Shown piece by piece: positions 8,640 through 26,163 of a stretch of 36,616 nucleotides of DNA. This DNA is from Candidatus Parvarchaeota archaeon. GTDB lineage: Archaea > Nanobdellota > Nanobdellia > Parvarchaeales > Parvarchaeaceae. The number at the start of each line of letters is the position of its first letter. The stretch's first letter is position 1. A program made the translations under genes and the position numbers. Under the pieces are notes generated by a model, which saw only the letters and a program-made list of their open reading frames with translations, made no database searches and was not told where the DNA came from. Location: the NCBI GenBank assembly GCA_027366075.1, contig DAHXLI010000028.1, forward strand, positions 1 through 36,616, given 5' to 3'.

Positions 8640-8738
8640 AGTTTACCTCCAAAAGTTATCAATCTATTTATTTAACTCTATATTTATAATCGCTTATAAA
8701 CATTTCAAAATGATTTTAATTAAATAGGTTTTTAGCAG

Positions 8739-8746
8739 TTTATATA
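8739..8746 (+). promoter_or_regulatory. TATA box for the 8771 gene (near-leaderless spacing)
   Basis: tttatata is centred about 28 nt upstream of ATG 8771, in an AT-rich divergent intergenic region. Confidence 0.4.
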
Positions 8747-8770
8747 TATCTCCTCATCAAATAAGATAAT

Positions 8771-10486
8771 ATGAATATAACCGAGATTGTAAGATACCAA
8801 AAAATGATAGCCGCAGCCAGTCCAAAAGTCGCAAAAAGCTGGGTAGACGAACTAAAGACAAGGGCGTGCGGACTTAATACCCGTTATCGCGGATCGATAT
8901 CTGAGTTAAAATACGCCAATAAAATCTATAAACCTGACATAAACCTACTTGGAAACCAAAATGGCTTTTTTCTTTCGATCGATATAGAAAACGCATATCA
9001 ATTCCAGTCAGAATATAATGGGGTACATCAGGAATTAAAGGCACTTGGTTATGCCGAAAATCTAAAAACGGCCGAATCAGTAGATCCCGCGGCTCTTTCT
9101 AACCTCATGACGATGGCCTTTGAGAAAAGAAAAGCGCTTGAAGATAGGGCGATGCAACTCTTAGGAAGCGTTAACACGGTTGTAAAATCGATAATATCCA
9201 TAACGTACGAGTTAAAAGAGTTGGACAGGAATTATTCTTTTTATAAACTGGCAGAATCAAGCGACCTCCAAAAGAAGGCGGCCTCAGAACTTGCCTTAAA
9301 AAGGATCTTTATCGATAATGTAGATGCAAGGAAAGGGGGTGCAAGCTTAAGCGCGTTATCAAGGGCGCCAACGCAGGGGCAAGGTGGCGCAGGCTTTATA
9401 GATTTAATATCCGTCTTCTATTCCGTAAAGAGTCTAAAAGACACAGAAGCCCTGCAGAGAAATGAACAGTATAAGAATATAATAAAGAACAGGTACGTAG
9501 AATACGAAGAGTGGAAAAAAATAAACAAGGCGGACCTCAGCAACAGGAGAGAAATGCTCCTCCAATATCTAAAGAGCCAGGCCGCGGCATATGAGATGTA
9601 TAAAAATTGGGCCGTAGAATCATTAAGCATTTTAAATAGGATAAACATGAAAGGCGTTACAAACGCTAGCGATTACATGAATGCCGCTAAAAGACCGGAC
9701 ATAATGGAAACGTCAGAATTTTCGGTGGAAGTAATGGCAGCAAAATCGATGTATGTGCGAGAATATGAAGTGGAATATCAAAGGGCATTTGGAACAAAGG
9801 GACCAGAACTGCCATCTAAAGTAACTCCATTAGGTAAGCTCCTTACAGAGGGACCAAAAGAGGGGAGTAGGTCGTTCTTACATACCAGTTTGAGAAAACA
9901 TGGCCCAAAAGTCGTTGCAGCGTTAGAGGCATCGTTCAGCTTCACAGAGAAGCAGTTCTTTCCTAAAGGCGTTCCTCAAGACAGGGCGCAATACATGGGC
10001 ACACTGGGTATTAAAATAAAACCTTATTGCTTTACGCTTGATGAATGGTATCTTTTCAAGAAAGCTTTAGAAACCTACATAAACAAGACCGTTTTCCAAA
10101 ACCTAGACCAAGTATCAGTATCTTCGCTGAACGTGATAAAGAAGGATCTCGATAAATACATTGCAGAGGCTGAAAAGAAAGACGAAAAAGAAAAGCCAAA
10201 ATCAAATTACGCGCTTTTCGATATCTATCAAGCTTTCAAGGACGATCTTGTTGGCATAAACAAATCCATGTCTTTCGTCGCAGGCGCAGGCGAAAAAAGA
10301 GCGTTTGACCCAAATATTTATGAAATAGAGGTAAGTCATAGGATGTTCAACAGGTTCAGAACCAAAGATGCGGTAGCAGTGGGTCTTTTTAGATCAAATG
10401 CGGATGCTTCATTGATATATGAAGAATTCAAAAGAAGAAAAAAATTATTGAATCCACTTTCAACATTTGATAACCAGTTGTTTTGA
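8771..10486 (+). CDS. hypothetical 571-aa soluble, largely helical/coiled-coil protein (no recognisable family)
   Basis: Long uninterrupted ORF with its own TATA element. It has no TM segment, no Walker motif and no signal peptide. Confidence 0.7.
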   Translation: MNITEIVRYQKMIAAASPKVAKSWVDELKTRACGLNTRYRGSISELKYANKIYKPDINLLGNQNGFFLSIDIENAYQFQSEYNGVHQELKALGYAENLKTAESVDPAALSNLMTMAFEKRKALEDRAMQLLGSVNTVVKSIISITYELKELDRNYSFYKLAESSDLQKKAASELALKRIFIDNVDARKGGASLSALSRAPTQGQGGAGFIDLISVFYSVKSLKDTEALQRNEQYKNIIKNRYVEYEEWKKINKADLSNRREMLLQYLKSQAAAYEMYKNWAVESLSILNRINMKGVTNASDYMNAAKRPDIMETSEFSVEVMAAKSMYVREYEVEYQRAFGTKGPELPSKVTPLGKLLTEGPKEGSRSFLHTSLRKHGPKVVAALEASFSFTEKQFFPKGVPQDRAQYMGTLGIKIKPYCFTLDEWYLFKKALETYINKTVFQNLDQVSVSSLNVIKKDLDKYIAEAEKKDEKEKPKSNYALFDIYQAFKDDLVGINKSMSFVAGAGEKRAFDPNIYEIEVSHRMFNRFRTKDAVAVGLFRSNADASLIYEEFKRRKKLLNPLSTFDNQLF

Positions 10487-10489
10487 CCT

Positions 10490-10663
10490 ATGGCGAATAG
10501 AAAAGGAGAGATGCCAATAACAGAGATCATAGCGATAGTCATTGCGATAATAGTGCTTCTTATCGGGGTAGTAATAGCACTTTATTTCAGTAGCGGGGGG
10601 TCAAGCCTTGGGGATTCAATATTCAAAACCCTTTCCTTTAGCTGGCTTTTCGGCAATGGATAA
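10490..10663 (+). CDS. 57-aa single-TM mini-protein with a class III-like N-terminus (mini-1)
   Basis: Not in the ORF track. The ATG lies 3 nt after the stop of the 571-aa gene. Sequence: MANRKGEMPITEIIAIVIAIIVLLIGVVIALYFSSGGSSLGDSIFKTLSFSWLFGNG. Confidence 0.55.
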   Translation: MANRKGEMPITEIIAIVIAIIVLLIGVVIALYFSSGGSSLGDSIFKTLSFSWLFGNG

Positions 10664-10829
10664 AAAAGCATCGATTCAAAGTAGCACATTCCTTTACATA
10701 ATCCTTCTGATAATAGTGATTTTACTGATAATAATCTTCCTAGAATTTTTCTCGCCGTATAAAATAACGAACCTTTTCGATTCGTTTATAAATTCAGGGA
10801 ATAATATAAACGGTAACAATTATGCTTAA
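10656..10829 (+). CDS. 57-aa single-TM mini-protein (mini-2)
   Basis: ATG 10656 overlaps the mini-1 stop by 8 nt (ATGGATAA). Sequence: MDKKASIQSSTFLYIILLIIVILLIIIFLEFFSPYKITNLFDSFINSGNNINGNNYA. The track start 10608 is probably an upstream extension. Confidence 0.5.
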   Translation: MDKKASIQSSTFLYIILLIIVILLIIIFLEFFSPYKITNLFDSFINSGNNINGNNYA

Positions 10830-10965
10830 TAAAAAAGGAGTTACTGATTATATCTTGCTTCTCATAATCATAATAGTAATATCGGTAGTGCTCGTGATAT
10901 TTTATTTGGTGGTGTACGGAAGCGCACCCGGCATATTCCCAAAGATTCCAAACCCATTCGGATAA
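10822..10965 (+). CDS. 47-aa single-TM mini-protein with a class III-like N-terminus (mini-3)
   Basis: Not in the ORF track. The ATG overlaps the mini-2 stop by 8 nt (ATGCTTAA). Sequence: MLNKKGVTDYILLLIIIIVISVVLVIFYLVVYGSAPGIFPKIPNPFG. Confidence 0.55.
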   Translation: MLNKKGVTDYILLLIIIIVISVVLVIFYLVVYGSAPGIFPKIPNPFG

Positions 10966-10969
10966 CGAT

Positions 10970-11158
10970 ATGTCAAGACTTAATAAAAAGGGGATTACCG
11001 AGGCAACGATATACTATATAATAGCAATAGCGCTGGGCATAACCGTTGTGGTAGTTTACATACTATTGGTAGGGCCGGGTACGATAGTAACCTACATATC
11101 CAACTTTTTCGGAGGGTTCTTGCACCTGGTTACCGGCGGATTAAGCACTAACGGTTGA
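10970..11158 (+). CDS. 62-aa single-TM mini-protein with a class III-like N-terminus (mini-4)
   Basis: Sequence: MSRLNKKGITEATIYYIIAIALGITVVVVYILLVGPGTIVTYISNFFGGFLHLVTGGLSTNG. It starts 4 nt after the mini-3 stop. Confidence 0.6.
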   Translation: MSRLNKKGITEATIYYIIAIALGITVVVVYILLVGPGTIVTYISNFFGGFLHLVTGGLSTNG

Positions 11159-11776: not shown

Positions 11777-13230
11777 TGTCCATCAGAAAAGGAAAAATAG
11801 AAGAGCGAGAGTATCAAAAAAACATCTTTGAAAATGCGAAGAATTCCAACACGCTCGTCGTTCTTCCCACCGGTCTAGGTAAAACTGTAATAAGCGTGTT
11901 AGTAGTAGATTACAGATTAAGCAAGTACAAAGATTCTATGGCACTTTTTTTGGCGCCCACAAAACCGCTAGTAAGCCAACATTATAAGACGTTCTCGGCT
12001 TTAATGGACGTTAAGCTTGGTATGACGAGTGGCGAGACTAAAAAAGCCGACAGGCAAAACGTATACGAAACGTCCAGGTTGATTTTTGCGACGCCGCAGA
12101 CCGTGGAAAATGACATAGAGAACGGAAATATAGATTTTTCAGATTTTAGCCTGCTTATAGTAGATGAGGCACATCACACGGTTGGAAATTACGCTTATGT
12201 AAAGATAGCAAAGGAATACATGATGAAATCGGCACACCCGCTTATACTCGGCTTGACCGCGTCTCCAGCTTCGGATCAGGAAAAAATAAATCTAATCTGT
12301 AGAAACCTAAGCATAGCCAACGTCGAGATAAGAGGAGAAGACGACCCAGACGTGGCGCCGTATGTAAAGTCAAAAACCATAGAAGAAATAAGGCTGGAAT
12401 TGCCCAATGAAATCTTGGAGATAATCTCTTATCTAAAGATATTCATACAAGAGCAGGTAGTCGCGCTTCAGCATGTAGGGTTGCTAAAAGACGCCGCGCT
12501 TAACAGGATAAATCGAAGGACAATACTTATGCTCCAGAAAAGTTTACAAGCGCGAATGTTCTCCGGGAATAGAAATTTCTACACAATAAGGGGCATAATA
12601 ATAACGTCAAAACTTTTGAAATTATACCACGCACTGAACCTTATCTCTACCCAGAGCGTAGGAGCTTTCAATAGATTCATCCAAAAAATAATAAATGAAG
12701 GCACGTCAAAGACGGATAAAGAGCTGGCAAAGGCGGAACAGATAAGATGGCTATTCGAAAAATCACAGAAGATATTAGATAGCGGAGTGGAGCACCCAAA
12801 GCTGAAAGAGCTAAGCAAGATACTTTCCGATTCTTTTTCTTCGGAGCAGAAAGCCATAATATTCACGCAATACAGGGACACCGTAGATGTCATATACGAC
12901 ACCGTACGGCGCAATGAAGGCGTAAGACCTGTCAAATTCATAGGACAGGGAAAGAGCGGCCTTTCTCAGAAGAAACAGATTGAAATAATAAAAGACTTTG
13001 AGGCAGGGGTTTACAATGTGCTCGTTTCGACTAGTGTAAGCGAGGAGGGGATGTCGATAAAGGGCGCGGACCTGGCAATATTTTATGAGACAGTGCCGAG
13101 CGGAATAAGGTCGATACAGCGAAGAGGCCGCGTAGGCAGGTTTAACGCGGGAAAGATATTCATACTTATAACAGAAGGTACAAACGATGAAGGATATTAT
13201 TGGGTGTCAAAAGAAAAGAGAGTAAGATGA
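11776..13230 (+). CDS. hef: Hef/FANCM-type SF2 helicase (helicase part only; probable frameshifted C-terminal tail to 13304)
   Basis: REYQKNIF..TLVVLPTGLGKT (motif I), IVDEAHHTVGNYAY (motif II), GLTASP, VLVSTSVSEEGM, PSGIRSIQRRGRVGR (motif VI), then EGYYW. Confidence 0.9.
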   Translation: MSIRKGKIEEREYQKNIFENAKNSNTLVVLPTGLGKTVISVLVVDYRLSKYKDSMALFLAPTKPLVSQHYKTFSALMDVKLGMTSGETKKADRQNVYETSRLIFATPQTVENDIENGNIDFSDFSLLIVDEAHHTVGNYAYVKIAKEYMMKSAHPLILGLTASPASDQEKINLICRNLSIANVEIRGEDDPDVAPYVKSKTIEEIRLELPNEILEIISYLKIFIQEQVVALQHVGLLKDAALNRINRRTILMLQKSLQARMFSGNRNFYTIRGIIITSKLLKLYHALNLISTQSVGAFNRFIQKIINEGTSKTDKELAKAEQIRWLFEKSQKILDSGVEHPKLKELSKILSDSFSSEQKAIIFTQYRDTVDVIYDTVRRNEGVRPVKFIGQGKSGLSQKKQIEIIKDFEAGVYNVLVSTSVSEEGMSIKGADLAIFYETVPSGIRSIQRRGRVGRFNAGKIFILITEGTNDEGYYWVSKEKRVR

Positions 13231-13305
13231 AAAAACTTATAAAAAATATAAAAGCTAACCCGAATACCCTGAAAAATGACGGTACTTTAAACCCGTTTGT
13301 TTGAT

Positions 13306-13776
13306 TTAGCCGCACGGAAGAAGAATGTCTGATGCGCCACCGGGAGAATAAAAGAAACCGTCTATGGCGGTGTTAGAACCGCTAGTGTTGCAGGTGTATA
13401 AGTAATATTTTTGAGTACTCCCTTTCGTTACAGTTATATTGGTATTGATGTCGCTTTCTCCAGCCACATAACTTTGTATTTTTCCAGTTATGTTACTATA
13501 CAAGGTATAAGTCAGCCCCGGGCTCCCATCTGACACGTATAACTCGTATGTGCACGATGCGCTGGAACTTGTAGTAAAATTATTTATTAAGGTCAGGCCG
13601 CAAACGGCTGGCTGCGTATTGAGCTTTGGCACAGTTTTTCCCAAGTCAAAAAGGGAAAAATGAAACACGTTGCTTAAAATTACGAATGCTATCACTAAGA
13701 AAGACACTAATATTATTATCACTGCCACTTTCTCTACCGATGAACTCCCCTTTTTGTTTAAGACGTTACTGCGCAT
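13306..13776 (-). CDS. class III signal peptide (pilin-like) protein, last gene of the Cys-rich operon
   Basis: MRSNVLNKKG-SSSVEKVAVIIILVSFLVIAFVIL (E at +5 if cleaved after G). 4 Cys and several N-x-S/T sequons. It overlaps the upstream gene by 19 nt. Confidence 0.7.
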   Translation of the reverse strand: MRSNVLNKKGSSSVEKVAVIIILVSFLVIAFVILSNVFHFSLFDLGKTVPKLNTQPAVCGLTLINNFTTSSSASCTYELYVSDGSPGLTYTLYSNITGKIQSYVAGESDINTNITVTKGSTQKYYLYTCNTSGSNTAIDGFFYSPGGASDILLPCG

Positions 13777-15245
13777 ACATACATCTGATTTCTCCCTAAA
13801 AGATTAGGTGCTGTTCCAGCTAGCTGGCTGAAGTAATCTTCAAGGGAAGTCACGCACCCCTGCAACCCACTCGTAGTGTAGAGAGCAGTTGTAATAGCCT
13901 TTGTGGCCGAAGTGTCTACATATTGGTTGCAAAGCGTGTTACTTTGGCACCGGCCGTAAAGATACCCCACCGCCCCGGCCCCAGCTAATGTAACTATACT
14001 AGGATTACCAGTTAAGGCAGGAGTGCCTATTGCAGCGCCGTAAACCGCTAACGCTTCTGAACATTGGTACTCTATCCCCGTGGTCGGGTAATTGTTAAGC
14101 CAAGTTTGTTGAAAACATTCTGGTGGCATGGAGACGGTAGCGGGAGGAAGCGCGCTATTAGCGAAACTATTCAGATAAACGACGTACAGCTCCGCGTTGT
14201 TTATGCTAATATTCGAATATACACCGACATTTTCCGACTGTCCGCTAGTCTTATTTTTGTAACTGTACAGGAGATTTACGCCCGGCGCAAGATAATCAAA
14301 GTAGGAAACATTAACGACAGAGTTGTTATTTACAGGTTCGGTGAGAGTACACAGGTTAGGTGGCCTATAATCGCCGGTATTCGAATCGTATTGGACCGTG
14401 CAGTTTGTATAACCATACGGAGTCTGCGCACAAAAGTCATTAAAAGTCTGTGTACAGCTACCGACTTGGCCTGTCGAATTAGTGCAGCTAAGAGTGGCTT
14501 TGTTAAAGTAGCATCCCTGTGTAGGGTCACAAAGATACGCTGAAAGGTTATTTGCTGCGGTCGTCACAGCCGTGGTGCTGTTGAGAAATATATTTTGTAG
14601 GGCGTATCCAGCGCCCGTAGGGTTATAGCCTTGTTGGTATTCGCAGCTGAAGTAATCGTACGAAGGCGCAGTGCACTGGGTCGGAGTAGTCGTATCGCAG
14701 GAAAAGCCGTCTGGATTTGCAGCACTTTGATAATTAGCGCACGACTGTTCCGCGGTATGGTTTAGGCAACTTATCTGCTGTGACAAAGCGACGCTTTTTA
14801 GATACTGCGTAAGGTTGTAGAAGGTAAGATTTTTTTGATTGCCGAATGAAACGCCTATGACACTGCAAAGCGCTGGAGAATTATAGAGCACATCTAGGCC
14901 GGAATTCGCGCCGTACTGGTACCAGCAGGTACCGAGCGCATCGGCTACGCCGCTAAAAAGTTGACCTGTAGTAGAACTTGAGGTGTAAGTCTGCGTAGCC
15001 GGCGAGCAGCCTATCAAAGGTGGCGCGCCTACTAACGCCTGTATCGTAGTGGATATACAAAAGAATTTGCTTATACAAAGGTCGTTATAAAAGAAATTTG
15101 TGACCTGAGAACTGCCGTAACATGAAGTAGCGTTCGTAAATCCAAAACCGAAAAGCAGGAAATATGCGAAAACAAGCACTATCACAAAGATAAAGATGAC
15201 GAAAAGTATTATAAATACAAAATTCTCACCCGCGGTCTCAGCCAT
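13758..15245 (-). CDS. N-terminally anchored, cysteine-rich (24 Cys), sequon-dense extracytoplasmic protein; family unknown
   Basis: MAETAGENFVFIILFVIFIFVIVLVFAYFLLF is followed by a Cys/Asn/Thr/Ser/Tyr/Gly-rich body with many N-x-S/T sequons. Its N-terminal domain looks paralogous to that of 15282..16211. Confidence 0.75.
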   Translation of the reverse strand: MAETAGENFVFIILFVIFIFVIVLVFAYFLLFGFGFTNATSCYGSSQVTNFFYNDLCISKFFCISTTIQALVGAPPLIGCSPATQTYTSSSTTGQLFSGVADALGTCWYQYGANSGLDVLYNSPALCSVIGVSFGNQKNLTFYNLTQYLKSVALSQQISCLNHTAEQSCANYQSAANPDGFSCDTTTPTQCTAPSYDYFSCEYQQGYNPTGAGYALQNIFLNSTTAVTTAANNLSAYLCDPTQGCYFNKATLSCTNSTGQVGSCTQTFNDFCAQTPYGYTNCTVQYDSNTGDYRPPNLCTLTEPVNNNSVVNVSYFDYLAPGVNLLYSYKNKTSGQSENVGVYSNISINNAELYVVYLNSFANSALPPATVSMPPECFQQTWLNNYPTTGIEYQCSEALAVYGAAIGTPALTGNPSIVTLAGAGAVGYLYGRCQSNTLCNQYVDTSATKAITTALYTTSGLQGCVTSLEDYFSQLAGTAPNLLGRNQMYVCAVTS

Positions 15246-15281
15246 ACAGATTTTAAACGCTATTTAATATAAATAATGCTT

Positions 15282-16211
15282 TTAAACAGCCGTACTATTT
15301 GTTATGCATACAAATGCGCGGTCTTGGCTTAGGACCATTGTATTAAGCAATTTACCGCAGAAAGCAATTACAAAGTTCCCGCATGCGCCTATTACATTAT
15401 CTTCAGAGTTATACGTAAGTGATCTTGGGTTGCTCAAAGAGCTTATTGGCAAGTTTATAGCGCCCAGTTTCTGGTCCGTTGAATTATCATAATTGCAGGC
15501 GTTACCTACGTCTGGTTGGTTGAATTTTGACACATAGTCACATTGAGTATTAAAATTTAGGGTGCAATCGGTGCCGGAAAGCCCGCCCGAGGGATAACCG
15601 AAATAGTATATGACATAAGTGGAGCCGTTTAATACTTCTTCGGCAGGGTTCGTGTAATTCGCAAGCCCCCCCGTACCATTTGTTATAAAAGTTATCTGCA
15701 GAGGGCTTCCGGTATTCTGATAATTATTGTCTATATAATCTATGAGTTGGTTGTAAGTCGTGATCCCACTCCCGGCCCCACTATTAAGTATCTTGCCGGT
15801 ATAGCACTCGAATAGTTGGTTTAATCCAGAACTTACTATCGACGTGCCGGTATTGGCATTGGAACCCTGGAATAGATTGAAACAAGAAGCCGCCTTTGTA
15901 TAGAGTTGTTCAGCCAATGACGATGTATCCTGCGCGTTGACGTTGGAATTCTGGGTGCACGCGCCCTGGATCTGAGAAGCAGCGACTGGGTTGTTTACAT
16001 ATGACTGGCCCACCAGGGGTGCGACAAGGAAAGAGACCGGGAACAAAAATGTATCTACTACGTTGTATTCCACGAATGAAAAATAACATTTCGCGCCGAA
16101 ATCGGTAGCGCCTATCGAGGTCGCAAAGGATATGCTAAAAACGAAAAGCACTACGCCACCTATAACTATTATTATCAACGAGATAATCACCAAAAGTACG
16201 CCTTGTTCCAT
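15282..16211 (-). CDS. N-terminally anchored, cysteine-rich (10 Cys) extracytoplasmic protein; paralogue of 13758..15245
   Basis: MEQGVLLVIISLIIIVIGGVVLFVF is followed by ..AKCYFS..LVAPLVGQ..SCFNLFQGSNANTG.., compared with ..TSCYGS..ALVGAP..TCWYQYGANSG.. in the 495-aa protein. Confidence 0.75.
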   Translation of the reverse strand: MEQGVLLVIISLIIIVIGGVVLFVFSISFATSIGATDFGAKCYFSFVEYNVVDTFLFPVSFLVAPLVGQSYVNNPVAASQIQGACTQNSNVNAQDTSSLAEQLYTKAASCFNLFQGSNANTGTSIVSSGLNQLFECYTGKILNSGAGSGITTYNQLIDYIDNNYQNTGSPLQITFITNGTGGLANYTNPAEEVLNGSTYVIYYFGYPSGGLSGTDCTLNFNTQCDYVSKFNQPDVGNACNYDNSTDQKLGAINLPISSLSNPRSLTYNSEDNVIGACGNFVIAFCGKLLNTMVLSQDRAFVCITNSTAV

Positions 16212-16369
16212 TAAAGACCGCCGAACAAGCCCGAAAAGAAATTAAAAGGCGAACCGCTGTTTGAACTCGCATAATATAAAATCAATATTATAAGTATCGC
16301 TACTATTGCTGTAGCCATCACTATAATCATCCATATTATTCTCCATTCTACGCTTCCTTTAGTGTTCAT
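16211..16369 (-). CDS. 52-aa single-TM mini-protein (same family as 10490..11158)
   Basis: Not in the ORF track. Sequence: MNTKGSVEWRIIWMIIVMATAIVAILIILILYYASSNSGSPFNFFSGLFGGL. Its ATG lies 1 nt after the upstream stop, and its TAA overlaps the next ATG (TAATG at 16209-16213). Confidence 0.5.
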   Translation of the reverse strand: MNTKGSVEWRIIWMIIVMATAIVAILIILILYYASSNSGSPFNFFSGLFGGL

Positions 16370-16370
16370 A

Positions 16371-16883
16371 TCACTGGCCTATGCACGAGGAACAGAGTGG
16401 ACTGTCGCCCGTTATGCATGTAGGTATGCTAGTGTCGCAATTTTGTATGTCCGTGGCATTGTCGGCAACTATCGTGCTACTCTGGCAACTTTCGAGGGCA
16501 GCGGTATTTGAAGGACCTAAGATCTTGCAATTTTGCAATACGCTTGCCGGCGGATTTTGTATGCAGTTTTGAACGACAGAGTTACTGCCATGGCCGTTCG
16601 TCCAATAATCATAGTAACACCAGTTTGTTATACATGTCGTGTTTGCGGTAGCCTGATCATAACAAGCATTGGTAAGGTAACATCTAAAAAGCGGCGTCCC
16701 TTCCATTCTATTGGGCGTGCCGTATTCTGCCTGGGTAAACTGGTTCTCGAGGAGGTTATTGTTATTGCAGCCTATCGGGAACACTTCTGAAAAATTCTGA
16801 TAGAAGATGAAGAAGACCACAAGGGCCACTATGAGAGAGAAAAGCACTTCGTACCATATGAACTCTTCGGTGTTTCCAGCCAT
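16371..16883 (-). CDS. N-terminally anchored cysteine-rich (12 Cys) protein, first gene of the operon
   Basis: MAGNTEEFIWYEVLFSLIVALVVFFIFY is followed by a Cys/Asn/Thr/Gln-rich body (..NACYDQATANTTCITNWCYYDYW..). Confidence 0.7.
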   Translation of the reverse strand: MAGNTEEFIWYEVLFSLIVALVVFFIFYQNFSEVFPIGCNNNNLLENQFTQAEYGTPNRMEGTPLFRCYLTNACYDQATANTTCITNWCYYDYWTNGHGSNSVVQNCIQNPPASVLQNCKILGPSNTAALESCQSSTIVADNATDIQNCDTSIPTCITGDSPLCSSCIGQ

Positions 16884-16901
16884 GACTCTGATTGGTTTTA
16901 G

Positions 16902-16911
16902 TATAATTTAA
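16902..16911 (-). promoter_or_regulatory. TATA-like element for the 16883->13306 operon
   Basis: The minus strand reads cTTAAATTATAc, centred about 24 nt upstream of ATG 16883 (leaderless-type spacing). Confidence 0.35.
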
Positions 16912-16946
16912 GTTTTGATTTGGACGCAGGGACGTAAGGCGGAGGT

Positions 16947-17354
16947 CTACTTGATGGCCCTGTCGTGCAGAATCACTTCAAACCACTTATATTGGCCGTT
17001 TTCTACCAAGAAATAAGAACCGACCACATCCATGTTCTTATACGTTTTTTGAGTCCTCGTTTCCGCGATTTTTTGCTTGCTGACAGCGAGGTTGAAATAT
17101 ATACCCGTCTTGCTCGGTCTTCGCGCATGGACTGGCCTTGGCCTTCTGAAGCTCCCTTTCGCCACCCGTACCCTTACGATCACGTAGCCCGTCTTAGCCT
17201 TGTAACCGAGCATCTTTGCCCTGGTAAGCCTAGTAGGCCTTTCGACTCTTTCCAAGATAGAACCTTTTTCGGCGCTTAGAAGCAAAGCTTTCTTCGTGGC
17301 TTTATCCTTAAACATCAGTCTTTCGTTGTCTCTTATATACTTAAATGATCCCAT
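16947..17354 (-). CDS. rpl15e: 50S ribosomal protein L15e (short form, 135 aa)
   Basis: MGSFKYIRD..RVERPTRLTRAKMLGYKAKTGYVIVRVRVAKGSFRRPRP..RRPSK..YKWFEVIL is the L15e core signature. Confidence 0.85.
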   Translation of the reverse strand: MGSFKYIRDNERLMFKDKATKKALLLSAEKGSILERVERPTRLTRAKMLGYKAKTGYVIVRVRVAKGSFRRPRPVHARRPSKTGIYFNLAVSKQKIAETRTQKTYKNMDVVGSYFLVENGQYKWFEVILHDRAIK

Positions 17355-17412: not shown

Positions 17413-17922
17413 TTATCCGCTGACCGCGCCCTCTATTTCTATCGCTTGTGGGAATAGAGGCGAAGACACGTTCGCGGGCTTATAGTAGATGTCTATCGAA
17501 GCCGTCCACGACGTCGGTAACGACAGCGTAAGATTGCATTCTGCGTAGCCTAGGTCCGGTATATACAGGTTTGGCAGGGCGGAACCAGGTACTTTGGTGC
17601 TATTTTCTATTGTGCTAACGCATTTGCCGGTCGAAAAACTCTGGTTTATGCCAGACGCTATAAAGTATATCTTGCTTATGTTTATGTTCTCGTTTAAGAT
17701 ATTTTGGAAACGAATATAATAGAATCCGGTCGCATTACAGCCGCTGCCGCAATATCCTTGTCCTGTGACTAACAGTCCCGTAAATCCTGAGTAGGTACTC
17801 GACGGCGCGGAAGAGAAGATATTAGGATAAAATATGAAAAGTATCGCCAAGGCGGCTGCGATTATTATGAATGCGATACTGTACCCTAAGAGCATTTCAA
17901 GCATGCTCTGTCCCTTAGCCAT
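17413..17922 (-). CDS. class III signal peptide protein (type IV pilin-like)
   Basis: MAKG-QSMLEMLLGYSIAFIIIAAALAILFIF shows K-G at -2/-1, Q at +1 and E at +5. 4 Cys and several sequons. Confidence 0.75.
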   Translation of the reverse strand: MAKGQSMLEMLLGYSIAFIIIAAALAILFIFYPNIFSSAPSSTYSGFTGLLVTGQGYCGSGCNATGFYYIRFQNILNENINISKIYFIASGINQSFSTGKCVSTIENSTKVPGSALPNLYIPDLGYAECNLTLSLPTSWTASIDIYYKPANVSSPLFPQAIEIEGAVSG

Positions 17923-17954
17923 AGAATACTTTTAAGATACGGATATTTAACGAT

Positions 17955-18026
17955 AGCCTTGGACGGGGATTGGACCCGTGACCCCCTGATTACGAGTCAG
18001 GTACTCTACCACTGAGCTACCAAGGC
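17955..18026 (-). tRNA. tRNA-Thr (anticodon CGU)
   Basis: I folded the cloverleaf by hand: acceptor GCCTTGG/CCAAGGC, anticodon stem CCTGA/TCAGG with loop CTCGTAA, T stem ACGGG/CCCGT. The T loop reads TCCAATC, which is non-canonical at position 55. No CCA is encoded. Confidence 0.8.
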
Positions 18027-18197
18027 TCACTTGAAATCTACAGGGCTACTGTTCACTGCCCTCAAGTATGAGCTTTCGCTTACTATATGTTTTTTAACAT
18101 CGACGGTCTTACCGCAGGAAAAGCATTTTATGGATTTAAGCGAACTGGTCCTTCTGTACTTGCCACAATTTGGACACCTTATTATGTAGCCGATCAT
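18027..18197 (-). CDS. 56-aa zinc-ribbon protein
   Basis: Not in the ORF track. Sequence: MIGYIIRCPNCGKYRRTSSLKSIKCFSCGKTVDVKKHIVSESSYLRAVNSSPVDFK (CxxC-x13-CxxC). Its ATG lies 1 nt after the minD stop, and its stop codon abuts the 5' end of tRNA-Thr. Confidence 0.55.
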   Translation of the reverse strand: MIGYIIRCPNCGKYRRTSSLKSIKCFSCGKTVDVKKHIVSESSYLRAVNSSPVDFK

Positions 18198-19768: not shown

Positions 19769-20329
19769 CTATTGACAGGCCGGGGCGACGTCGTTTATTG
19801 ACATGCAGGCATACTGCAACAACTGCTGTTCAGCCGTCGGCTCACTATCAAAGCCCCCTATTTTATAGTATTGGGCGTACGCTCCGCCAATAAAGACAAA
19901 AGGGACTTTTCCTTGGGCCAGTGAAGCGAATACGCTTTCTGAGCCCGGCGGCGCCATAACATCGCTCGCGTTTGTATTGTAAGCGGTTATATTGAATGCA
20001 TAAGCGCAGAAGTATGAGCTGTAAAAAGTCCCATTAGCAGCGGACCCAGATATAGCGAACTTTGATGTCACGTTCGTGAAAGCACTTAGCTCGGTCGCGC
20101 AACTTTGGCAGTTATCCGCATAAAAGAATATCATCGTCGACTTATTGGCGGTGCAAAGGCTGGAGTTAGATACCGTCACGCCGGAGGCTATAGGGGATGT
20201 CTGCTTGAACGAGTAAAAACTATTTAACGAATCGATCTCATATAGAAGCACGAAACTCAGGATAGTAAACCCCACGAGTACTGCTATGTATACATACTTG
20301 TATTTTTTAAGAGACTTAACGCTGTGCAT
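19769..20329 (-). CDS. membrane-anchored thioredoxin-fold protein with a CxxC (CQSC) motif, DsbA/thiol-disulfide oxidoreductase-like
   Basis: It has an N-terminal anchor YVYIAVLVGFTILSFVLLY. MIFFYADNCQSCATEL is a beta1-CxxC-alpha1 arrangement, and GKVPFVFIGG is a cis-Pro loop-like element. Confidence 0.65.
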   Translation of the reverse strand: MHSVKSLKKYKYVYIAVLVGFTILSFVLLYEIDSLNSFYSFKQTSPIASGVTVSNSSLCTANKSTMIFFYADNCQSCATELSAFTNVTSKFAISGSAANGTFYSSYFCAYAFNITAYNTNASDVMAPPGSESVFASLAQGKVPFVFIGGAYAQYYKIGGFDSEPTAEQQLLQYACMSINDVAPACQ

Positions 20330-21245
20330 AAAATGAGATATTCAGAGTGTTTAGTTCGCTTTGCTTACACGAGTTACTGCTGTCGTTTATACAGATATTT
20401 GTCACGTCTGCGCCAAGCCCGGTATATATATTGTAATATGTTTGTGTAGCGAAGTTGCTGAGGCTTGATATCAGATTAAAGACGACCAGGGAACTATTGC
20501 ACGTGGCTCTCAGCGGATAATAATATATCTCGTACTGGAACGGGACAGGCAGATAAATCGGATCGGTTTCTACGGTACCGTTTTTTAGATCCAATATGTA
20601 TTCAGGTATTTGTTCCAGCTTTATCAGCGACTTTACCATTGAAGACTGGAGGCTTTCGTTCGTAGAGTTCAAAACGGATATATCATAGTATAAGGGCCCG
20701 AAGAAAGTAGAATTAGCTTCCGCCCCCGGGATGGATTTTACGGAATTATAAGCTCTATACAGTGTAGATGCCGTTGAGTTGTAAAGCGAGTAAGCCGTCG
20801 AATAATTCATAAATTTCATGGTAAAATTGTAGATGACGCCGGTTATGGTCGTACAGCCTGGTAAACCCGGGTCTATGACACATAAAGTGTACTTGCCGAC
20901 ATCAGTGGTTATGTTTGTGTATTCCTTGTATGCAGTAAAGTTCTCCAACGCCACCAACGGCGGTATGTTGTAGTAAGAGGGTTCTACGCCGTAATTGCAG
21001 TTTATAATCATCTCGTTATTGGCCGGCACCTGATAATAGGCTGAAAGCGAGGTGTTGCTATCGAAACCGTACTTGCCAAGAAAACCTAGTAGCGCAGCCT
21101 GGTTGGCTTGCACAACTCTGCCTACAGACTGGTTCGTGTTAGAGCCGGTAATTGTGTTAAAAGTCGGATAACTGTATATTATTACAGTAAACACGGCGGC
21201 GAATATAAGCACCGCCGCAAGCAGTGCGGTAGTGTTTCTATTCAT
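20316..21245 (-). CDS. N-terminally anchored, sequon-rich exported protein (6 Cys), family unknown
   Basis: The anchor MNRNTTALLAAVLIFAAVFTVIIY is followed by an Asn/Thr/Ser/Tyr-rich body with many N-x-S/T sequons. It overlaps both neighbouring genes. Confidence 0.65.
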   Translation of the reverse strand: MNRNTTALLAAVLIFAAVFTVIIYSYPTFNTITGSNTNQSVGRVVQANQAALLGFLGKYGFDSNTSLSAYYQVPANNEMIINCNYGVEPSYYNIPPLVALENFTAYKEYTNITTDVGKYTLCVIDPGLPGCTTITGVIYNFTMKFMNYSTAYSLYNSTASTLYRAYNSVKSIPGAEANSTFFGPLYYDISVLNSTNESLQSSMVKSLIKLEQIPEYILDLKNGTVETDPIYLPVPFQYEIYYYPLRATCNSSLVVFNLISSLSNFATQTYYNIYTGLGADVTNICINDSSNSCKQSELNTLNISFYAQR

Positions 21246-25491: not shown

Positions 25492-26163
25492 ATGCGTGGG
25501 CAATTCTCCATAGAATTCGTGATAGACGTAAGCTTTGTGCTCATAATCGTGGCATTCCTTATAGTCTTCTTCGCGTCTTTCATAAACACAAATTCGGCCG
25601 CCGTAAGCATGAATAACATATGCGATCAGATATCGCAGGGCATAAACGGCGTCTCGTCTTCCGGCGGGCTTTCTTCGATACAATACGTTTCCCTGACCAA
25701 CGGCACCGCGCGGCAGACCTACAATGTAACGGTATCAGACGGGATAGTAATAATATACCTGCTAAATTCAAATGGCAGATCGTCCGCTTTGATAGCCAAT
25801 ACGAATGTGGTATCGTGCGGCGCGGATACGAGAGCGACTGCAAACGAGACTTTCGGGTTTTCCAACCTCGCGATATACGAGAATTCAAGCAACATAGAAC
25901 TTGCGTATCTATACGGAAATTACTCGGGAAACAGCGCCTATCCTTTGAGCATACGCGGAGGCGGGTTTTCCGGCAACGCAAGCCTTTATCTTGTGTACTC
26001 GAACGGCACCTCGTCCCTGCTTAATGGCACCGAGCCGGGCAAAGGTTTCAGTTATGACAGCATAGCCCTGATACAGACGCTGCCTGCCGGGAGCTATCAG
26101 TTCTACGCGGAAGAAGGACTAGACGGCTCCATACACGTATCCTTGCCGTTTTCTAAAACGTGA
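25492..26163 (+). CDS. class III signal peptide (pilin-like) protein
   Basis: MRG-QFSIEFVIDVSFVLIIVAFLIVFFASFI shows R-G, Q at +1 and E at +5. The body is sequon-rich and has 2 Cys. Confidence 0.75.
   Translation: MRGQFSIEFVIDVSFVLIIVAFLIVFFASFINTNSAAVSMNNICDQISQGINGVSSSGGLSSIQYVSLTNGTARQTYNVTVSDGIVIIYLLNSNGRSSALIANTNVVSCGADTRATANETFGFSNLAIYENSSNIELAYLYGNYSGNSAYPLSIRGGGFSGNASLYLVYSNGTSSLLNGTEPGKGFSYDSIALIQTLPAGSYQFYAEEGLDGSIHVSLPFSKT

What the first reader, a model, noticed from the sequence alone, without database searches (positions are those of the whole stretch)
13306..16883. Translationally coupled five-gene operon of cysteine-rich, sequon-dense anchored proteins ending in a pilin-like protein, with no recognisable family
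Five same-strand ORFs are joined by coupling junctions. A TGA at 16371-16373 lies one nt before the ATG of a 52-aa ORF. There is a TAATG overlap at 16209-16213 and a 19-nt overlap at 13758-13776. The only gap is 36 nt (15246-15281). The 170-, 309- and 495-aa products each have one N-terminal hydrophobic helix followed by a Cys/Asn/Thr/Ser/Tyr/Gly-rich body with many N-x-S/T sequons. My hand counts give 12, 10, 24 and 4 Cys (the 4 are in the final 156-aa class III protein), all even, which is what disulfide-paired extracytoplasmic proteins would show. The 309- and 495-aa proteins share an N-terminal pattern (anchor, C-Y-x-S, LVG, C-[WF]-x2-[YF]-x-G-[AS]-N) and look paralogous. A canonical pilin (17413..17922) lies just upstream on the same strand. 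I do not recognise any of these bodies. A glycosylated, disulfide-stabilised surface, adhesion or pilus-associated complex is a reasonable hypothesis, and would be particularly interesting if the organism is a cell-attached small-genome archaeon.
Basis: partly seen in the sequence, partly recalled or inferred. Interest (0 to 1): 0.8.

Follow-up and report, generated by a model that had tools for sequence, protein, structure and literature searches.

The report
Cysteine-rich pilus accessory genes, DPANN archaeon
These five genes from a tiny acid-mine symbiotic archaeon (Parvarchaeales) encode disulfide-rich surface proteins of unknown fold that, in distant relatives, sit directly behind the motor genes of a type IV pilus, so they are most likely the previously unrecognised structural or adhesive parts of that pilus.

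Summary
All five minus-strand ORFs, their junctions and the Cys counts (12/0/10/24/4) are as described, and the genes are real. The set is syntenic in 30 species-level Parvarchaeales genomes, including ARMAN-4 and ARMAN-5. Cys residues are invariant, and some N-x-S/T sites are 94-100% conserved.

No Pfam, NCBIfam or PDB sequence match exists. A usable AlphaFold model of the 495-aa protein has no Foldseek match.

An exhaustive profile search finds only 30 relatives among 1.84 billion representatives. In five independent distant DPANN loci, homologs of the 170-, 309- and 495-aa proteins lie in the same order. They sit immediately downstream of a T2SSE (PilB/FlaI-type) ATPase and a polytopic PilC/TadC-like protein, and are followed by tiny and small prepilin-like genes. 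The cluster is therefore best read as the accessory/structural module of a DPANN-specific type IV pilus, detached from its motor genes in Parvarchaeales.

- It is probably two coupled units (A-B-C and D-E), each with its own TATA-like box.
- The 309/495-aa paralogy is not statistically supported.
- Only the 52-aa and 156-aa products and the upstream pilin meet class III signal criteria.
- Sequon density in the 170- and 309-aa products is compositional.

Exact role (tip/priming adhesin complex or envelope anchor) is inferred, not shown.

The parts
16371..16883 (-). Gene A, 170 aa. It has an acidic N-terminus (MAGNTEEF), one N-terminal hydrophobic helix and a 12-Cys ectodomain with invariant ENQF and NRxEGT motifs. 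It is not a class III signal protein.
   Evidence: 12 Cys (10 invariant, 2 at 93%), and sequon N142 is 100% conserved. The class III rule is passed by only 3/28 members. The A profile hits the gene immediately after the platform gene in distant loci: L037 2e-22, L039 1e-11, L043 1.6e-14, L049 1e-19. The L043 homolog also has exactly 12 Cys.
16211..16369 (-). Gene B, 52 aa. It is a tiny class III-type protein (MNTKG|SVEWR followed by a TM helix and a short Ser/Gly/Phe tail). Its start lies 1 nt after the stop of A, and its stop overlaps the start of C (TAATG).
   Evidence: It is conserved in 29 loci, including the N-terminal KKG-SVEWR, which shows that the 52-aa start is correct and the 39-aa call in L001 is not. 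29/29 members pass the class III rule, 27 of them with K/R at -2. It has the same design as the four tiny ORFs at 10490-11158.
15282..16211 (-). Gene C, 309 aa. Its N-terminus is MEQG followed by a hydrophobic helix, and it has a 10-Cys ectodomain.
   Evidence: 10/10 Cys are invariant, and sequons N178, N195 (100%) and N243 (94%) are conserved. The class III rule is passed only in an acidic 'EG' form, in 18/32 members. The C profile hits the gene preceding the D homolog in distant loci: L041 1.6e-10, L039 8e-10, L037 5.7e-8, L049 8e-9. The AF2 model is poor (pLDDT 45).
15262..15277 (-). TATA-like box (ATTATTTATATTAAAT) inside the 36-nt C-D spacer, about 17-32 nt upstream of the D start codon. 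It is a probable internal promoter giving a leaderless or short-leader D-E transcript.
   Evidence: An A/T-rich TATA-like element at the same distance is present in nearly all 31 orthologous spacers, which are always 29-71 nt long. Function is inferred.
13758..15245 (-). Gene D, 495 aa. Its N-terminus MAETAGE is invariant (G6, E7), followed by a hydrophobic helix. The 24-Cys ectodomain has an alpha/beta N-domain (about 39-170), a beta-rich domain (about 190-385) and a low-confidence Gly/Ala-rich region (397-460).
   Evidence: 28-32 homologs, all unnamed; 21 Cys invariant in A1; sequons N139, N144, N312 and N331 are 91-97% conserved. The AF2 model has mean pLDDT 71.7, with the core at about 80-89. 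There is no PDB or BFVD structural match and no PDB sequence match. Some family members carry true class III leaders: P0026 MANKKG|QETAGE, P0053 NKKG|E, P0051 KKKG|M, P0061-63 [KR]G|E.
13306..13776 (-). Gene E, 156 aa. It is a class III (prepilin-like) protein, ...NKKG|SSSVE..., with Glu at +5. Its start overlaps the end of D by 19 nt.
   Evidence: 29/30 members pass the class III rule with K/R at -2. The 19-nt overlap is conserved in 22/29 loci. Sequon N130 is 100% conserved. No Pfam pilin model is reached; only sub-threshold Flp1_like and N_methyl hits occur in 1-2 members. The fold was not tested.
13230..13253 (-). Oligo-T tract (TTTTATATTTTTTATAAGTTTTTT on the coding strand) 53-76 nt downstream of the E stop codon. 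It is a plausible archaeal terminator.
   Evidence: The sequence is read directly; function is inferred from general knowledge that archaeal termination occurs at oligo-T runs.
16901..16912 (-). TATA-like box (CTTAAATTATAC) about 18-29 nt upstream of the A start codon. It is the probable promoter of the A-B-C unit.
   Evidence: A conserved AAAAACAATTTAAAT/TTAAAT element lies at the same distance in most orthologous loci. Function is inferred.
17413..17922 (-). Gene U, 169 aa. It is a prepilin-like protein with the EppA-type signature MAKG|QSMLE (+1 Gln, +5 Glu). It is separated from A by the ribosomal protein L15e gene (16947-17354) and travels with the cluster.
   Evidence: it is syntenic in 24+ loci, and 23/25 members have K/R at -2 with +1 Q and +5 E. 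There is no Pfam hit in any member.
10490..11158 (+). Four tandem tiny ORFs (57, 57, 47 and 62 aa). Each has a [KR]KG/KKA motif, a TM helix and a short Gly/Ser/Phe tail. They are paralog-like to B and belong to the same system. In other Parvarchaeales they follow E directly on the same strand, and in distant loci they follow the D homolog.
   Evidence: all four pass the class III rule. In L002 they lie at 12022-12678 directly after E, and L004 and L042 show the same arrangement. The SFSWLF tail of the first one matches the tiny ORF after D in L037, L043 and L049.

Best explanation
The cluster is the extracytoplasmic accessory/structural module of a DPANN-specific type IV pilus (type IV filament) system. 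A, C and D are single-pass proteins with the N-terminus in the cytoplasm and the body outside. Their Cys-rich bodies are oxidised to disulfides and N-glycosylated outside the cell. B and E, the upstream protein U and the four tiny ORFs at 10490-11158 are class III (prepilin-type) proteins that a prepilin peptidase would process. In the ancestral arrangement, still seen in other DPANN lineages, the genes are co-transcribed with the assembly ATPase and the membrane platform. In acidophilic Parvarchaeales the module has been detached from the motor genes and is transcribed as two translationally coupled units, A-B-C and D-E.

The most likely working model is inferred by analogy to minor-pilin/PilY1 sets and has about 0.4 probability on its own. 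In it, A, C and D use their pilin-like N-terminal helices to assemble on the platform with B and E into a disulfide-stabilised priming/tip complex. The large D protein acts as the adhesin, and U or the tiny pilins polymerise underneath. This would give the symbiont a filament for attaching to its Thermoplasmatales host.

Shown: the genes are real, conserved and syntenic; the module is linked to the motor genes in distant relatives; B, E and U carry class III motifs; no known family or fold matches. Inferred: topology, disulfides, glycosylation, complex formation, and position in the pilus.
For: 1. Reality and conservation. The set is syntenic in 30 Parvarchaeales species, with conserved junction geometry.
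2. Extracytoplasmic character. Cys are invariant and even-numbered in A, C and D, and sequons are 94-100% conserved. K+R is 1.8-5.8% and N+S+T 28-31%, like SecD/F and the other exported proteins of the window and unlike its cytoplasmic proteins at 10-24% K+R. Distant neutral-pH homologs have K/R-rich N-terminal tips, consistent with an N-in orientation. A signal-anchored thioredoxin-like CxxC protein lies about 2 kb beyond U.
3. Pilus link. The A1 profile search found distant D homologs. Their loci L037, L041, L043/L044/L048 and L049, plus L039 truncated upstream, all read T2SSE ATPase (62-68 bits against Pfam's cutoff of 24.9), then a 670-688-aa protein with 6-8 TM helices and sub-threshold T2SSF hits, then an A homolog, a tiny ORF, a C homolog, a D homolog, tiny [KR]KG ORFs and KAQG|LP pilins.
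4. Class III criteria from PMC4371748 are met by B (29/29), E (29/30) and U (24/25).
5. D-family leaders. P0026 has MANKKG|QETAGE where the others start MAETAGE, and P0053, P0051 and P0061-63 carry [KR]G| leaders.
6. Motor and peptidase in the order. A Peptidase_A24 gene lies 5 kb from the cluster in Acidifodinimicrobium (L004). VirB11 and TadC are reported as the only recognisable pilus genes in that genus (PMC7779479). pilA is reported in all Parvarchaeales (PMC10134863).
7. Makarova et al. 2016 could not identify cognate pilins for nanoarchaeal secretion ATPases (PMC4858521).
Against: - No ATPase, platform or prepilin peptidase gene lies in the 36.6-kb window or within 10 kb of the cluster in any Parvarchaeales locus, apart from the peptidase in L004. 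For this organism the link is therefore by homology to distant loci only.
- One distant D homolog (L045) has no motor genes nearby.
- A, C and D in the window fail the class III rule: there is no K/R at -2, and A has no conserved G/A/S. Their incorporation into a filament is conjecture.
- No pilin, adhesin or FlaF/G-like fold was detected for D. C could not be modelled, and A, B and E were not modelled.
- The platform assignment rests on sub-threshold T2SSF hits (20.3 and 16.4 bits against a cutoff of 25.2) plus topology.
- There are no expression, proteomic or imaging data.
Confidence: 0.7

Rival explanations
1. The system is the same type IV filament, but A, C and D are not in the filament. 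They stay in the membrane and form a disulfide-stabilised collar or anchor in the space between membrane and S-layer. This would fix the machine to the envelope or guide the pilus through the S-layer, as FlaF/FlaG do for the archaellum. Only B, E, U and the tiny proteins are filament subunits.
For: - A, C and D lack a canonical prepilin cleavage motif in the window and in most relatives, like the unprocessed monotopic FlaF/FlaG (PMC4425475, listed).
- A is the most conserved member (69% mean column identity) and always directly follows the platform gene, as expected for a machine component and not for a fast-evolving adhesin.
- Cryo-ET of another DPANN shows an unidentified barrel-like complex under the S-layer (PMC11329633).
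Against: - Several D-family members do have bona fide [KR]G| leaders, which would release them from a fixed anchor role.
- No beta-sandwich FlaF/G-like match was found for D by Foldseek.
- No S-layer-binding feature could be tested.
Confidence: 0.2
2. In Parvarchaeales the cluster has become an autonomous surface glycoprotein or adhesion complex that no longer depends on a pilus motor. The linkage to ATPase and platform genes in other DPANN is only historical.
For: - The module is physically detached from any motor gene in all about 30 Parvarchaeales loci examined.
- The N-terminal leaders of A, C and D have lost all basic residues.
- L045 shows a D homolog without adjacent motor genes.
Against: - The cluster keeps tight synteny with class III proteins (U, B, E and the tiny ORFs) across the order.
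- VirB11, TadC and pilA are reported in these genomes.
- A prepilin peptidase lies nearby in L004.
- Dispersal of pilin genes away from the ATPase/TadC operon is common in archaea (PMC4858521).
Confidence: 0.07
3. The machine is a type IV filament relative used for something other than adhesion. It could be a short pseudopilus for protein export (T2SS-like) or a DNA/substrate uptake device, with A, C and D as its extracellular gate or cargo-binding parts.
For: - The motor genes (T2SSE, T2SSF-like) are shared by pili, T2SS and competence systems.
- DPANN depend on imported host material (PMC10134863; PMC7779479).
- Many tiny pilin-like subunits of about 50 aa, little more than the N-terminal helix, are present.
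Against: - No secretin, nuclease, DNA-binding or substrate-binding domain was detected in any product.
- Pili-like filaments are seen on ARMAN/DPANN cells (PMC5864196; PMC11329633).
- Nothing specific points to export or uptake.
Confidence: 0.08

Closest known systems
Archaeal type IV pilus loci with minor-pilin sets (for example M. maripaludis Epd: EpdA-E with EpdJ/K/L and EppA; arCOG-based models of Makarova, Koonin and Albers 2016)
   Same: - In distant relatives the operon has a secretion ATPase, a polytopic platform and several small class III proteins.
- U carries the KG|Q...E(+5) signature typical of EppA substrates (KGQx).
- Very short pilins exist in both systems.
- Pilin genes are often dispersed away from the motor genes.
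- Conserved Cys in T4P components have been noted for Thermoproteales systems.
   Different: - A, C and D have no detectable sequence or fold relation to any described pilin, minor pilin or arCOG-annotated component available to me.
- They mostly lack the basic leader.
- They are exceptionally Cys-rich (up to 24-40 Cys).
- The A-(B)-C-D order directly after the platform gene is a fixed DPANN-specific signature.
- Pfam pilin and class III models do not reach even U or E.
Bacterial minor-pilin/PilY1 (or T2SS GspH-I-J-K) priming and tip complex
   Same: - Functionally analogous idea: an operon of several N-terminal-helix proteins plus one large non-pilin-like adhesin that initiates assembly and ends up at the tip.
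- A conserved Glu lies near the start of the hydrophobic helix in A, C and D.
   Different: - No homology was found: no N_methyl/T2SS pseudopilin hit above threshold, and no PilY1 beta-propeller or vWA domain.
- This is an archaeal envelope without an outer membrane.
- The role is inferred by analogy only.
FlaF/FlaG of the archaellum
   Same: Both are monotopic proteins with an archaellin-like hydrophobic N-terminus that is not cleaved. They are encoded with the motor genes, act outside the membrane and bind the S-layer (PMC4425475).
   Different: - No sequence match was found, and for D no structural match.
- A, C and D are much larger (C, D) and Cys-rich.
- The gene position is after the platform, not before FlaH/I/J.
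DPANN 'dark-matter' T4P islands predicted by Makarova, Wolf and Koonin 2019 (PMC6393860, Fig. 2A)
   Same: The reasoning is the same: unannotated signal-peptide proteins next to FlaI/TadC in DPANN genomes are predicted to be divergent pilins.
   Different: - That prediction is generic.
- This specific three-family Cys-rich module, its conservation from Parvarchaeales to Nanoarchaeota- and Aenigmarchaeota-labelled MAGs, and its detached state in ARMAN-type genomes are not described in the text I could read. Its supplementary cluster tables could not be checked.

Membership tests
Archaeal class III signal peptide (prepilin-like) proteins | G/A/S at -1 preceded by a charged residue at -2, within the first ~25 residues (criteria from PMC4371748) | tested here: met
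   This applies to B, E and U only. B passes in 29/29 members (27 with K/R), E in 29/30 (K/R) and U in 24/25 (23 with K/R). In the window the sites are B KG|SVEWR, E KG|SSSVE and U KG|QSMLE.
Archaeal class III signal peptide (prepilin-like) proteins | The same cleavage motif in the Cys-rich proteins A, C and D | tested here: not met
   A passes in 3/28 members. C passes in 18/32, only as an acidic 'EG', and the window copy has QG. In D only 1 of 32 has K/R at -2. However, D relatives P0026, P0051, P0053 and P0061-63 carry [KR]G| leaders.
Archaeal class III signal peptide (prepilin-like) proteins | A hydrophobic H-domain of about 20 residues immediately after the site | tested here: met
   All six proteins have a 15-residue window with mean Kyte-Doolittle hydropathy of at least 2.0 directly after the N-terminal tip.
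Archaeal class III signal peptide (prepilin-like) proteins | +1 Gln and +5 Glu (EppA-type subset) | tested here: met
   U: 23/25 members have +1 Q and +5 E. By the rule's first-site count, 12/30 E members have E/D at +5; read from the KG site, the alignment consensus is KG|xSxVE. B has Glu at +3.
Archaeal class III signal peptide (prepilin-like) proteins | Match to curated pilin or class III models (Pfam Class_IIIsignal, N_methyl, archaeal pilin families) | tested here: not met
   There is no hit above threshold for any member of the U or E alignments. Only Flp1_like (E = 0.0078, 2 members) and N_methyl (E = 0.028, 1 member) appear.
Archaeal class III signal peptide (prepilin-like) proteins | Actual cleavage by a PibD/FlaK/EppA-type A24 peptidase | not testable with these tools
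   This needs top-down mass spectrometry or an in vitro assay. A Peptidase_A24 gene is present 5 kb from the cluster in L004, but none is in the window.
Type IV filament (T4P-like) gene cluster | Adjacent T2SSE/VirB11-family assembly ATPase | tested here: not met
   Not met in the window or in any Parvarchaeales locus within 10 kb. Met in the loci of distant A/C/D homologs: L037, L041, L043/44/48 and L049, with Pfam T2SSE at 62-68 bits against a cutoff of 24.9.
Type IV filament (T4P-like) gene cluster | Adjacent polytopic PilC/TadC/FlaJ (T2SSF) platform protein | tested here: inconclusive
   In the distant loci the 670-688-aa gene after the ATPase has 6-8 predicted TM segments, but its T2SSF hits are only sub-threshold (E = 5.7e-4 at 20.3 bits and E = 8.8e-3, against a cutoff of 25.2). 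It is absent from the window.
Type IV filament (T4P-like) gene cluster | Several co-located class III signal proteins | tested here: met
   Counting the convincing cases, the window holds 10 ORFs that pass the rule: B, E, U, four tiny ORFs, and 2708-3418, 25492-26163 and 26237-26698. Two more pass formally: 19769-20329 (the anchored thioredoxin-like protein) and 4233-4694 (a four-TM protein, likely a false positive). The distant loci have 5-8 such ORFs after the D homolog.
Bacterial minor pilins / PilY1 / T2SS pseudopilins | Sequence or fold homology (N_methyl motif, pseudopilin fold, PilY1 propeller/vWA) | tested here: not met
   There are no Pfam or NCBIfam hits. The D model has no PDB match (best E = 0.85, TM about 0.06). 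PDB profile searches for A, C, D, E and U are empty or non-significant.
S-layer or known archaeal surface protein families | Match to S-layer or surface domain models, or to solved structures | tested here: not met
   No Pfam, NCBIfam, PDB or BFVD match was found.
   hhalign gives 11% and 7.5% probability. For the ectodomain N-terminal regions alone, the local score is 12.9 against a shuffle null of 12.6 +/- 2.5, with 45 of 100 shuffles reaching the observed score. A similar order of secondary-structure elements and similar Cys spacing (C: 42/85/110/136; D: 42/80/107/127) remains an untested lead, because the C model is unreliable.

The most novel reading that the evidence does not exclude
A, C and D, three protein families of unknown fold restricted to a few DPANN lineages, form the host-contact organelle of these ectosymbionts. 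It would be a disulfide-locked, glycosylated complex assembled and extended by a type IV pilus motor. It would either cap the filament as the host-specific adhesin or build an envelope-spanning docking/gating structure like the unidentified barrel seen by cryo-ET under a DPANN S-layer. The Gly/Ala-rich, poorly ordered segment of D (residues 397-460) might engage the host envelope. If so, this would be the first molecular handle on how ARMAN-type archaea attach to, and possibly exchange material with, Thermoplasmatales.
Probability: 0.15. Interest if true: 0.85.

Novelty: new variant of a known kind. Interest (0 to 1): 0.6.

Why it matters
DPANN archaea are obligate symbionts, and how they attach to and feed on their hosts is largely unknown at the molecular level.
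- Genome papers on Parvarchaeota list only a VirB11 ATPase and TadC as recognisable interaction genes.
- The 2016 survey of archaeal type IV pili could not find cognate pilins for nanoarchaeal ATPases.
- This analysis assigns a conserved, previously hypothetical gene set to that machinery: three Cys-rich families plus several tiny and small prepilin-like proteins.
- It shows the ancestral operon architecture and explains why the set was missed in ARMAN-type genomes, where it is detached from the motor and shows no family hits.
- It gives concrete candidates (D as adhesin; A and C as core accessory parts) for proteomics, cryo-ET labelling and structure prediction in the few DPANN co-cultures that exist.

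Tried and rejected
- Known families. Pfam and NCBIfam scans of all six proteins returned only noise: Caudo_bapla_N E = 0.021, csmH repeat E = 0.026, and the like.
- PDB sequence profiles for A, C, D, E and U gave nothing significant. The 9loc Fc-receptor hit for E (E = 0.0065, no stretch passing on its own) was judged to be Ig-like or compositional noise.
- Foldseek of the D model against PDB and BFVD gave best E-values of 0.85 and 0.59 with TM below 0.1, so there is no match.
- The C309 AF2 model reached only pLDDT 45 (11-sequence alignment). I discarded it and did not use it for a fold search.
- The homolog search for E through the word index returned only 2 relatives, too few for a useful fold, so E's pilin fold remains untested.
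- C/D paralogy was rejected on statistics.
- The window's 571-aa protein (8771-10486) was tested as a possible platform or ATPase. It has no TM segments, no BLAST similarity to the distant loci's proteins and no family, so this was rejected.
- ATPase and platform homologs were searched for in all fetched Parvarchaeales loci and in the window; none were found.
- The metagenome scan for more distant D loci gave only 5 loci, of which 1 was really new.
- A viral or mobile-element origin is not supported. The context is housekeeping (TFB, GINS, Hef helicase, L15e, MinD, SecDF, thermosome) and syntenic across the order.
- The B profile does not detect the 40-47-aa ORFs between the A and C homologs in distant loci. 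They are positional equivalents only.
- The bacterial promoter/terminator scanner was not used, because it does not model archaeal promoters.

Full report
**1. What is in the sequence**

The five minus-strand ORFs exist exactly as described:

| Gene | Coordinates | Length |
|---|---|---|
| A | 16883..16371 | 170 aa |
| B | 16369..16211 | 52 aa |
| C | 16211..15282 | 309 aa |
| D | 15245..13758 | 495 aa |
| E | 13776..13306 | 156 aa |

- The junctions are correct. A's TGA is followed by one nt and then B's ATG. B and C share a TAATG overlap. D and E overlap by 19 nt. The C-D gap is 36 nt.
- Cys counts are 12/0/10/24/4, and sequon counts are 3/0/5/12/4.
- Each product starts with one strongly hydrophobic helix.
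- Upstream on the same strand lie ribosomal protein L15e (16947-17354; Pfam E = 1e-34) and a 169-aa protein, U (17413-17922), that begins MAKG|QSMLE.

The rest of the window is ordinary archaeal housekeeping DNA, with no pilus ATPase, platform or prepilin peptidase. It encodes TFB, GINS, a Hef-type helicase, MinD, SecD/SecF, glycogen enzymes and a thermosome.

**2. The genes are real and belong to Parvarchaeales**

- The 495-aa protein has 27 relatives in the indexed 5.8-billion-protein set. All are unnamed or "hypothetical" and come from Parvarchaeota/Acidifodinimicrobium MAGs.
- A scan of one genome per GTDB species found it in 30 genomes, all Parvarchaeales under various NCBI labels, including the original ARMAN-4 and ARMAN-5 scaffolds.
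- Orthologs of all six proteins lie in the order U - L15e - A - B - C - D - E in almost every locus.
- Cys residues are essentially invariant and even in number. A has 12 in 25/28 members, C has 10 in 31/32, and D has 24 in 29/32.
- At least one sequon per protein is 94-100% conserved: A N142; C N178/N195/N243; D N139/N144/N312/N331; E N130.
- Junction geometry is conserved. The A-B gap is 1 nt in 16/25 loci, B-C is -1 or 0 in 22/27, and D-E is a 19-nt overlap in 22/29.

**3. Corrections to the description**

(a) The C-D junction is never an overlap. It is a 29-71-nt spacer in all 29 loci and carries an A/T-rich TATA-like element about 25 nt before the ATG (window 15262-15277). A second conserved box (AAAAACAATTTAAAT; window CTTAAATTATAC at 16901-16912) precedes A. 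In L027 the U-A-B-C block and the D-E block are separated and inverted relative to each other. The Acidifodinimicrobium loci (L004/L030/L031) show no A or U hit, although L030's contig ends just upstream of B, so it is uninformative there. The cluster is therefore better described as two translationally coupled units, A-B-C and D-E.

(b) "Sequon-dense" is largely compositional. All exported proteins of this acidophile have K+R below 6% and N+S+T of 25-34%. A and C carry no more sequons than that composition predicts. What sets A, C and D apart is their Cys content of 3.2-7.1%.

(c) The proposed C/D paralogy is not supported. hhalign gives 11% and 7.5% probability. With the TM helix removed, the score equals a column-shuffle null: 12.9 against 12.6 +/- 2.5. 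Similar Cys spacing and a similar order of predicted secondary-structure elements remain a weak lead, because the C model is unreliable.

**4. No known family or fold**

- Pfam and NCBIfam give nothing for any product.
- Profile searches against all PDB sequences give nothing for A, C, D, E or U.
- The AlphaFold model of D is usable: mean pLDDT 71.7, with the core (residues 80-390) at about 80-89. It shows a TM helix, an alpha/beta N-domain, a beta-rich domain and a poorly ordered Gly/Ala-rich stretch at 397-460.
- That model has no Foldseek match in PDB (best E = 0.85) or BFVD (best E = 0.59).
- The model of C failed, with pLDDT 45.

**5. N-termini fall into two classes**

I used the published criteria: G/A/S at -1, a charged residue at -2, then a hydrophobic H-domain, with +1 Gln and +5 Glu for EppA-type substrates (PMC4371748). 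I applied them to every family member.

| Family | Members passing | Detail |
|---|---|---|
| U | 24/25 | 23 with K/R at -2, +1 Q and +5 E |
| B | 29/29 | 27 with K/R at -2 |
| E | 29/30 | all 29 with K/R at -2 |
| A | 3/28 | fails |
| C | 18/32 | only as an acidic "EG" |
| D | 17/32 | 15 of these at an inconsistent 'ES' site; only one member has K/R at -2 |

Only B and E, and U upstream, are therefore prepilin-like by rule. No Pfam pilin model reaches them.

The D family does show that its N-terminus is pilin-derived. P0026 begins MANKKG|QETAGE where all the others begin MAETAGE, and G6 and E7 are invariant in A1. Distant members also carry NKKG|E (P0053), KKKG|M (P0051) and MKG|L (P0049). 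Short relatives that match only the first ~150 residues of the D profile carry [KR]G|E (P0061-63). Most Parvarchaeales D proteins thus start at what is position +1 of a processed relative.

**6. The decisive evidence: context of distant homologs**

An exhaustive HMM search of 1.84 billion representatives with the D alignment found only 30 proteins. About a dozen are full-length distant relatives (E = 1e-20 to 1e-36) with ordinary, non-acidophile composition and 26-40 Cys. Source labels include "Nanoarchaeota archaeon", "Candidatus Aenigmarchaeota archaeon" and Rehaiarchaeum.

Their loci read as follows:

- L037, L041, L043/L044 and L049, with L048 close to L043 and L039 truncated upstream.
- First comes a T2SSE ATPase of 743-798 aa, scoring 62-68 bits against Pfam's cutoff of 24.9.
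- Next is a 670-688-aa protein with 6-8 TM segments and sub-threshold T2SSF hits.
- Next is a 136-160-aa protein that the A profile detects, at E = 2e-22, 1e-11, 1.6e-14 and 1e-19. The L041 copy is linked transitively.
- Next is a 40-47-aa ORF.
- Next is a 282-380-aa protein that the C profile detects, at E = 1.6e-10, 8e-10, 5.7e-8, 2e-6 and 8e-9.
- Next is the D homolog.
- Next come tiny [KR]KG ORFs, whose first member ends ...SFxWLF like the window ORF at 10490-10663.
- Last come "KAQG|LP" pilins.

One distant locus, L045, lacks motor genes.

A, C and D are therefore an old, order-conserved module of a DPANN type IV filament operon. In Parvarchaeales the module is detached: no ATPase or platform homolog lies within 10 kb in any locus. 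The order still has the motor and the peptidase, however:

- VirB11 and TadC are the only pilus genes annotated in Acidifodinimicrobium MAGs (PMC7779479).
- pilA-type pilins are reported in all Parvarchaeales (PMC10134863).
- A Peptidase_A24 gene lies 5 kb from the cluster in L004.

**7.

Four tandem tiny ORFs at 10490-11158 (+) have the same design as B. In other Parvarchaeales (L002, L004, L042) they follow E directly on the same strand. In the window they have ended up convergent to the cluster, beyond the GINS and helicase genes.

Three more ORFs carry class III N-termini:

- 2708-3418: KKA|QFATE
- 25492-26163: MRG|QFSIE
- 26237-26698: KTKA|QSALEYMMTYGW

A signal-anchored thioredoxin-fold protein with FFYADNCQSC lies at 19769-20329. 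It could supply extracytoplasmic disulfide chemistry.

**8. Mechanism**

Shown:
- a conserved, exported-type Cys-rich trio plus class III proteins;
- linkage to a T4P motor in distant relatives.

Inferred:
- A, C and D are inserted N-in/C-out, oxidised and N-glycosylated outside.
- Together with B and E they form a pilus-associated complex.

I favour a minor-pilin/adhesin-like priming or tip complex with D as the adhesin (about 0.4). An envelope anchor or collar in the manner of FlaF/FlaG is the main alternative (about 0.2). Both sit within an overall 0.7 confidence that this is a type IV filament module. Autonomous surface complex and export/uptake variants are minor rivals.

**9. Novelty**

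The general idea that unannotated signal-peptide proteins next to FlaI/TadC in DPANN are divergent pilins was stated generically in 2019 (PMC6393860). The 2016 survey explicitly failed to find cognate pilins for nanoarchaeal ATPases (PMC4858521). I found no paper describing these families.

This is therefore a new variant of a known kind: a type IV pilus system with three new, narrowly distributed Cys-rich component families of unknown fold. It is not a categorically new system. Interest is moderate to high, because it offers concrete candidates for the attachment apparatus of ARMAN-type symbionts.

Noticed in passing
window 10490-11158 (+): Four tandem, partly overlapping tiny ORFs (57, 57, 47 and 62 aa). 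Each has a [KR]KG or KKA motif, one TM helix and a short Gly/Ser/Phe tail, the same design as B52. They follow E directly in other Parvarchaeales and follow the D homolog in distant DPANN loci. The first has a conserved ...SFSWLF tail.
   Followed up: partly
window 2708-3418 (-), 25492-26163 (+), 26237-26698 (+): Three further prepilin-like genes: KKA|QFATEYLVITG (236 aa), MRG|QFSIEFVID (223 aa) and KTKA|QSALEYMMTYGWAILI (153 aa, the most canonical archaeal PilA-type N-terminus in the window). None reaches a Pfam pilin model.
   Followed up: partly
window 19769-20329 (-): A signal-anchored 186-aa protein with a thioredoxin-type active site (FFYADNCQSCATE; weak AhpC/TSA hit) and 6 sequons, next to SecD/SecF. 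It is a candidate extracytoplasmic thiol-disulfide oxidoreductase that could serve the Cys-rich proteins.
   Followed up: partly
window 20316-21245 (-): A 309-aa N-terminally anchored protein with the highest sequon density in the window (4.85 per 100 aa against 1.85 expected). It has no family hit and overlaps the start of the thioredoxin-like gene.
   Followed up: no
window 34720-36364 (+), break near 35850: The thermosome (Cpn60/TCP-1) gene is split into two ORFs by a frameshift, with the reading frame continuing in the +1 frame. The ortholog in L002 is intact (546 aa). This is probably an assembly or sequencing error, or a pseudogene.
   Followed up: partly
window 8771-10486 (+): A 571-aa soluble, K/R-rich protein with no family hit is conserved across Parvarchaeales immediately upstream of the four tiny ORFs (574-586 aa in L002, L004 and L005). 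It has no TM segment and is unrelated to the distant loci's ATPase or platform. Its function is unknown.
   Followed up: partly
window 16947-17354 (-) and 17954-18027 (-): The ribosomal protein L15e gene is wedged between the pilin-like gene U and gene A in nearly all Parvarchaeales, and a tRNA-Thr(CGU) lies just upstream of U. This is an odd but conserved mix of housekeeping and surface genes.
   Followed up: no
L027 (1907-3834 vs 8425-11027); L004/L031 (also L030, uninformative upstream of B): Natural 'experiments' exist. In L027 the U-A-B-C and D-E blocks are separated and inverted relative to each other. In the Acidifodinimicrobium loci A and U are missing locally, while B-C-D-E and the tiny ORFs remain, and a Peptidase_A24 gene lies at L004:16266-17096.
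   Followed up: partly
window 13758-15245 (-), D residues 397-460: This is a moderately hydrophobic Gly/Ala-rich segment (ALAVYGAAIGTPALTGNPSIVTLAGAGAVGYLYG...) that AlphaFold leaves at pLDDT 34-42. An equivalent hydrophobic segment exists in distant homologs. It could be an interface or a membrane-interacting region.
   Followed up: no
L041:537-3402, L043:1674-4248, L043:16626-18878: In the distant loci the ATPase is preceded by three paralogous ~170-200-aa membrane proteins and two divergently transcribed coiled-coil proteins. An S_layer_C-domain protein and glycosyltransferases lie a few kb downstream. These may be further parts of the same surface apparatus.
   Followed up: no
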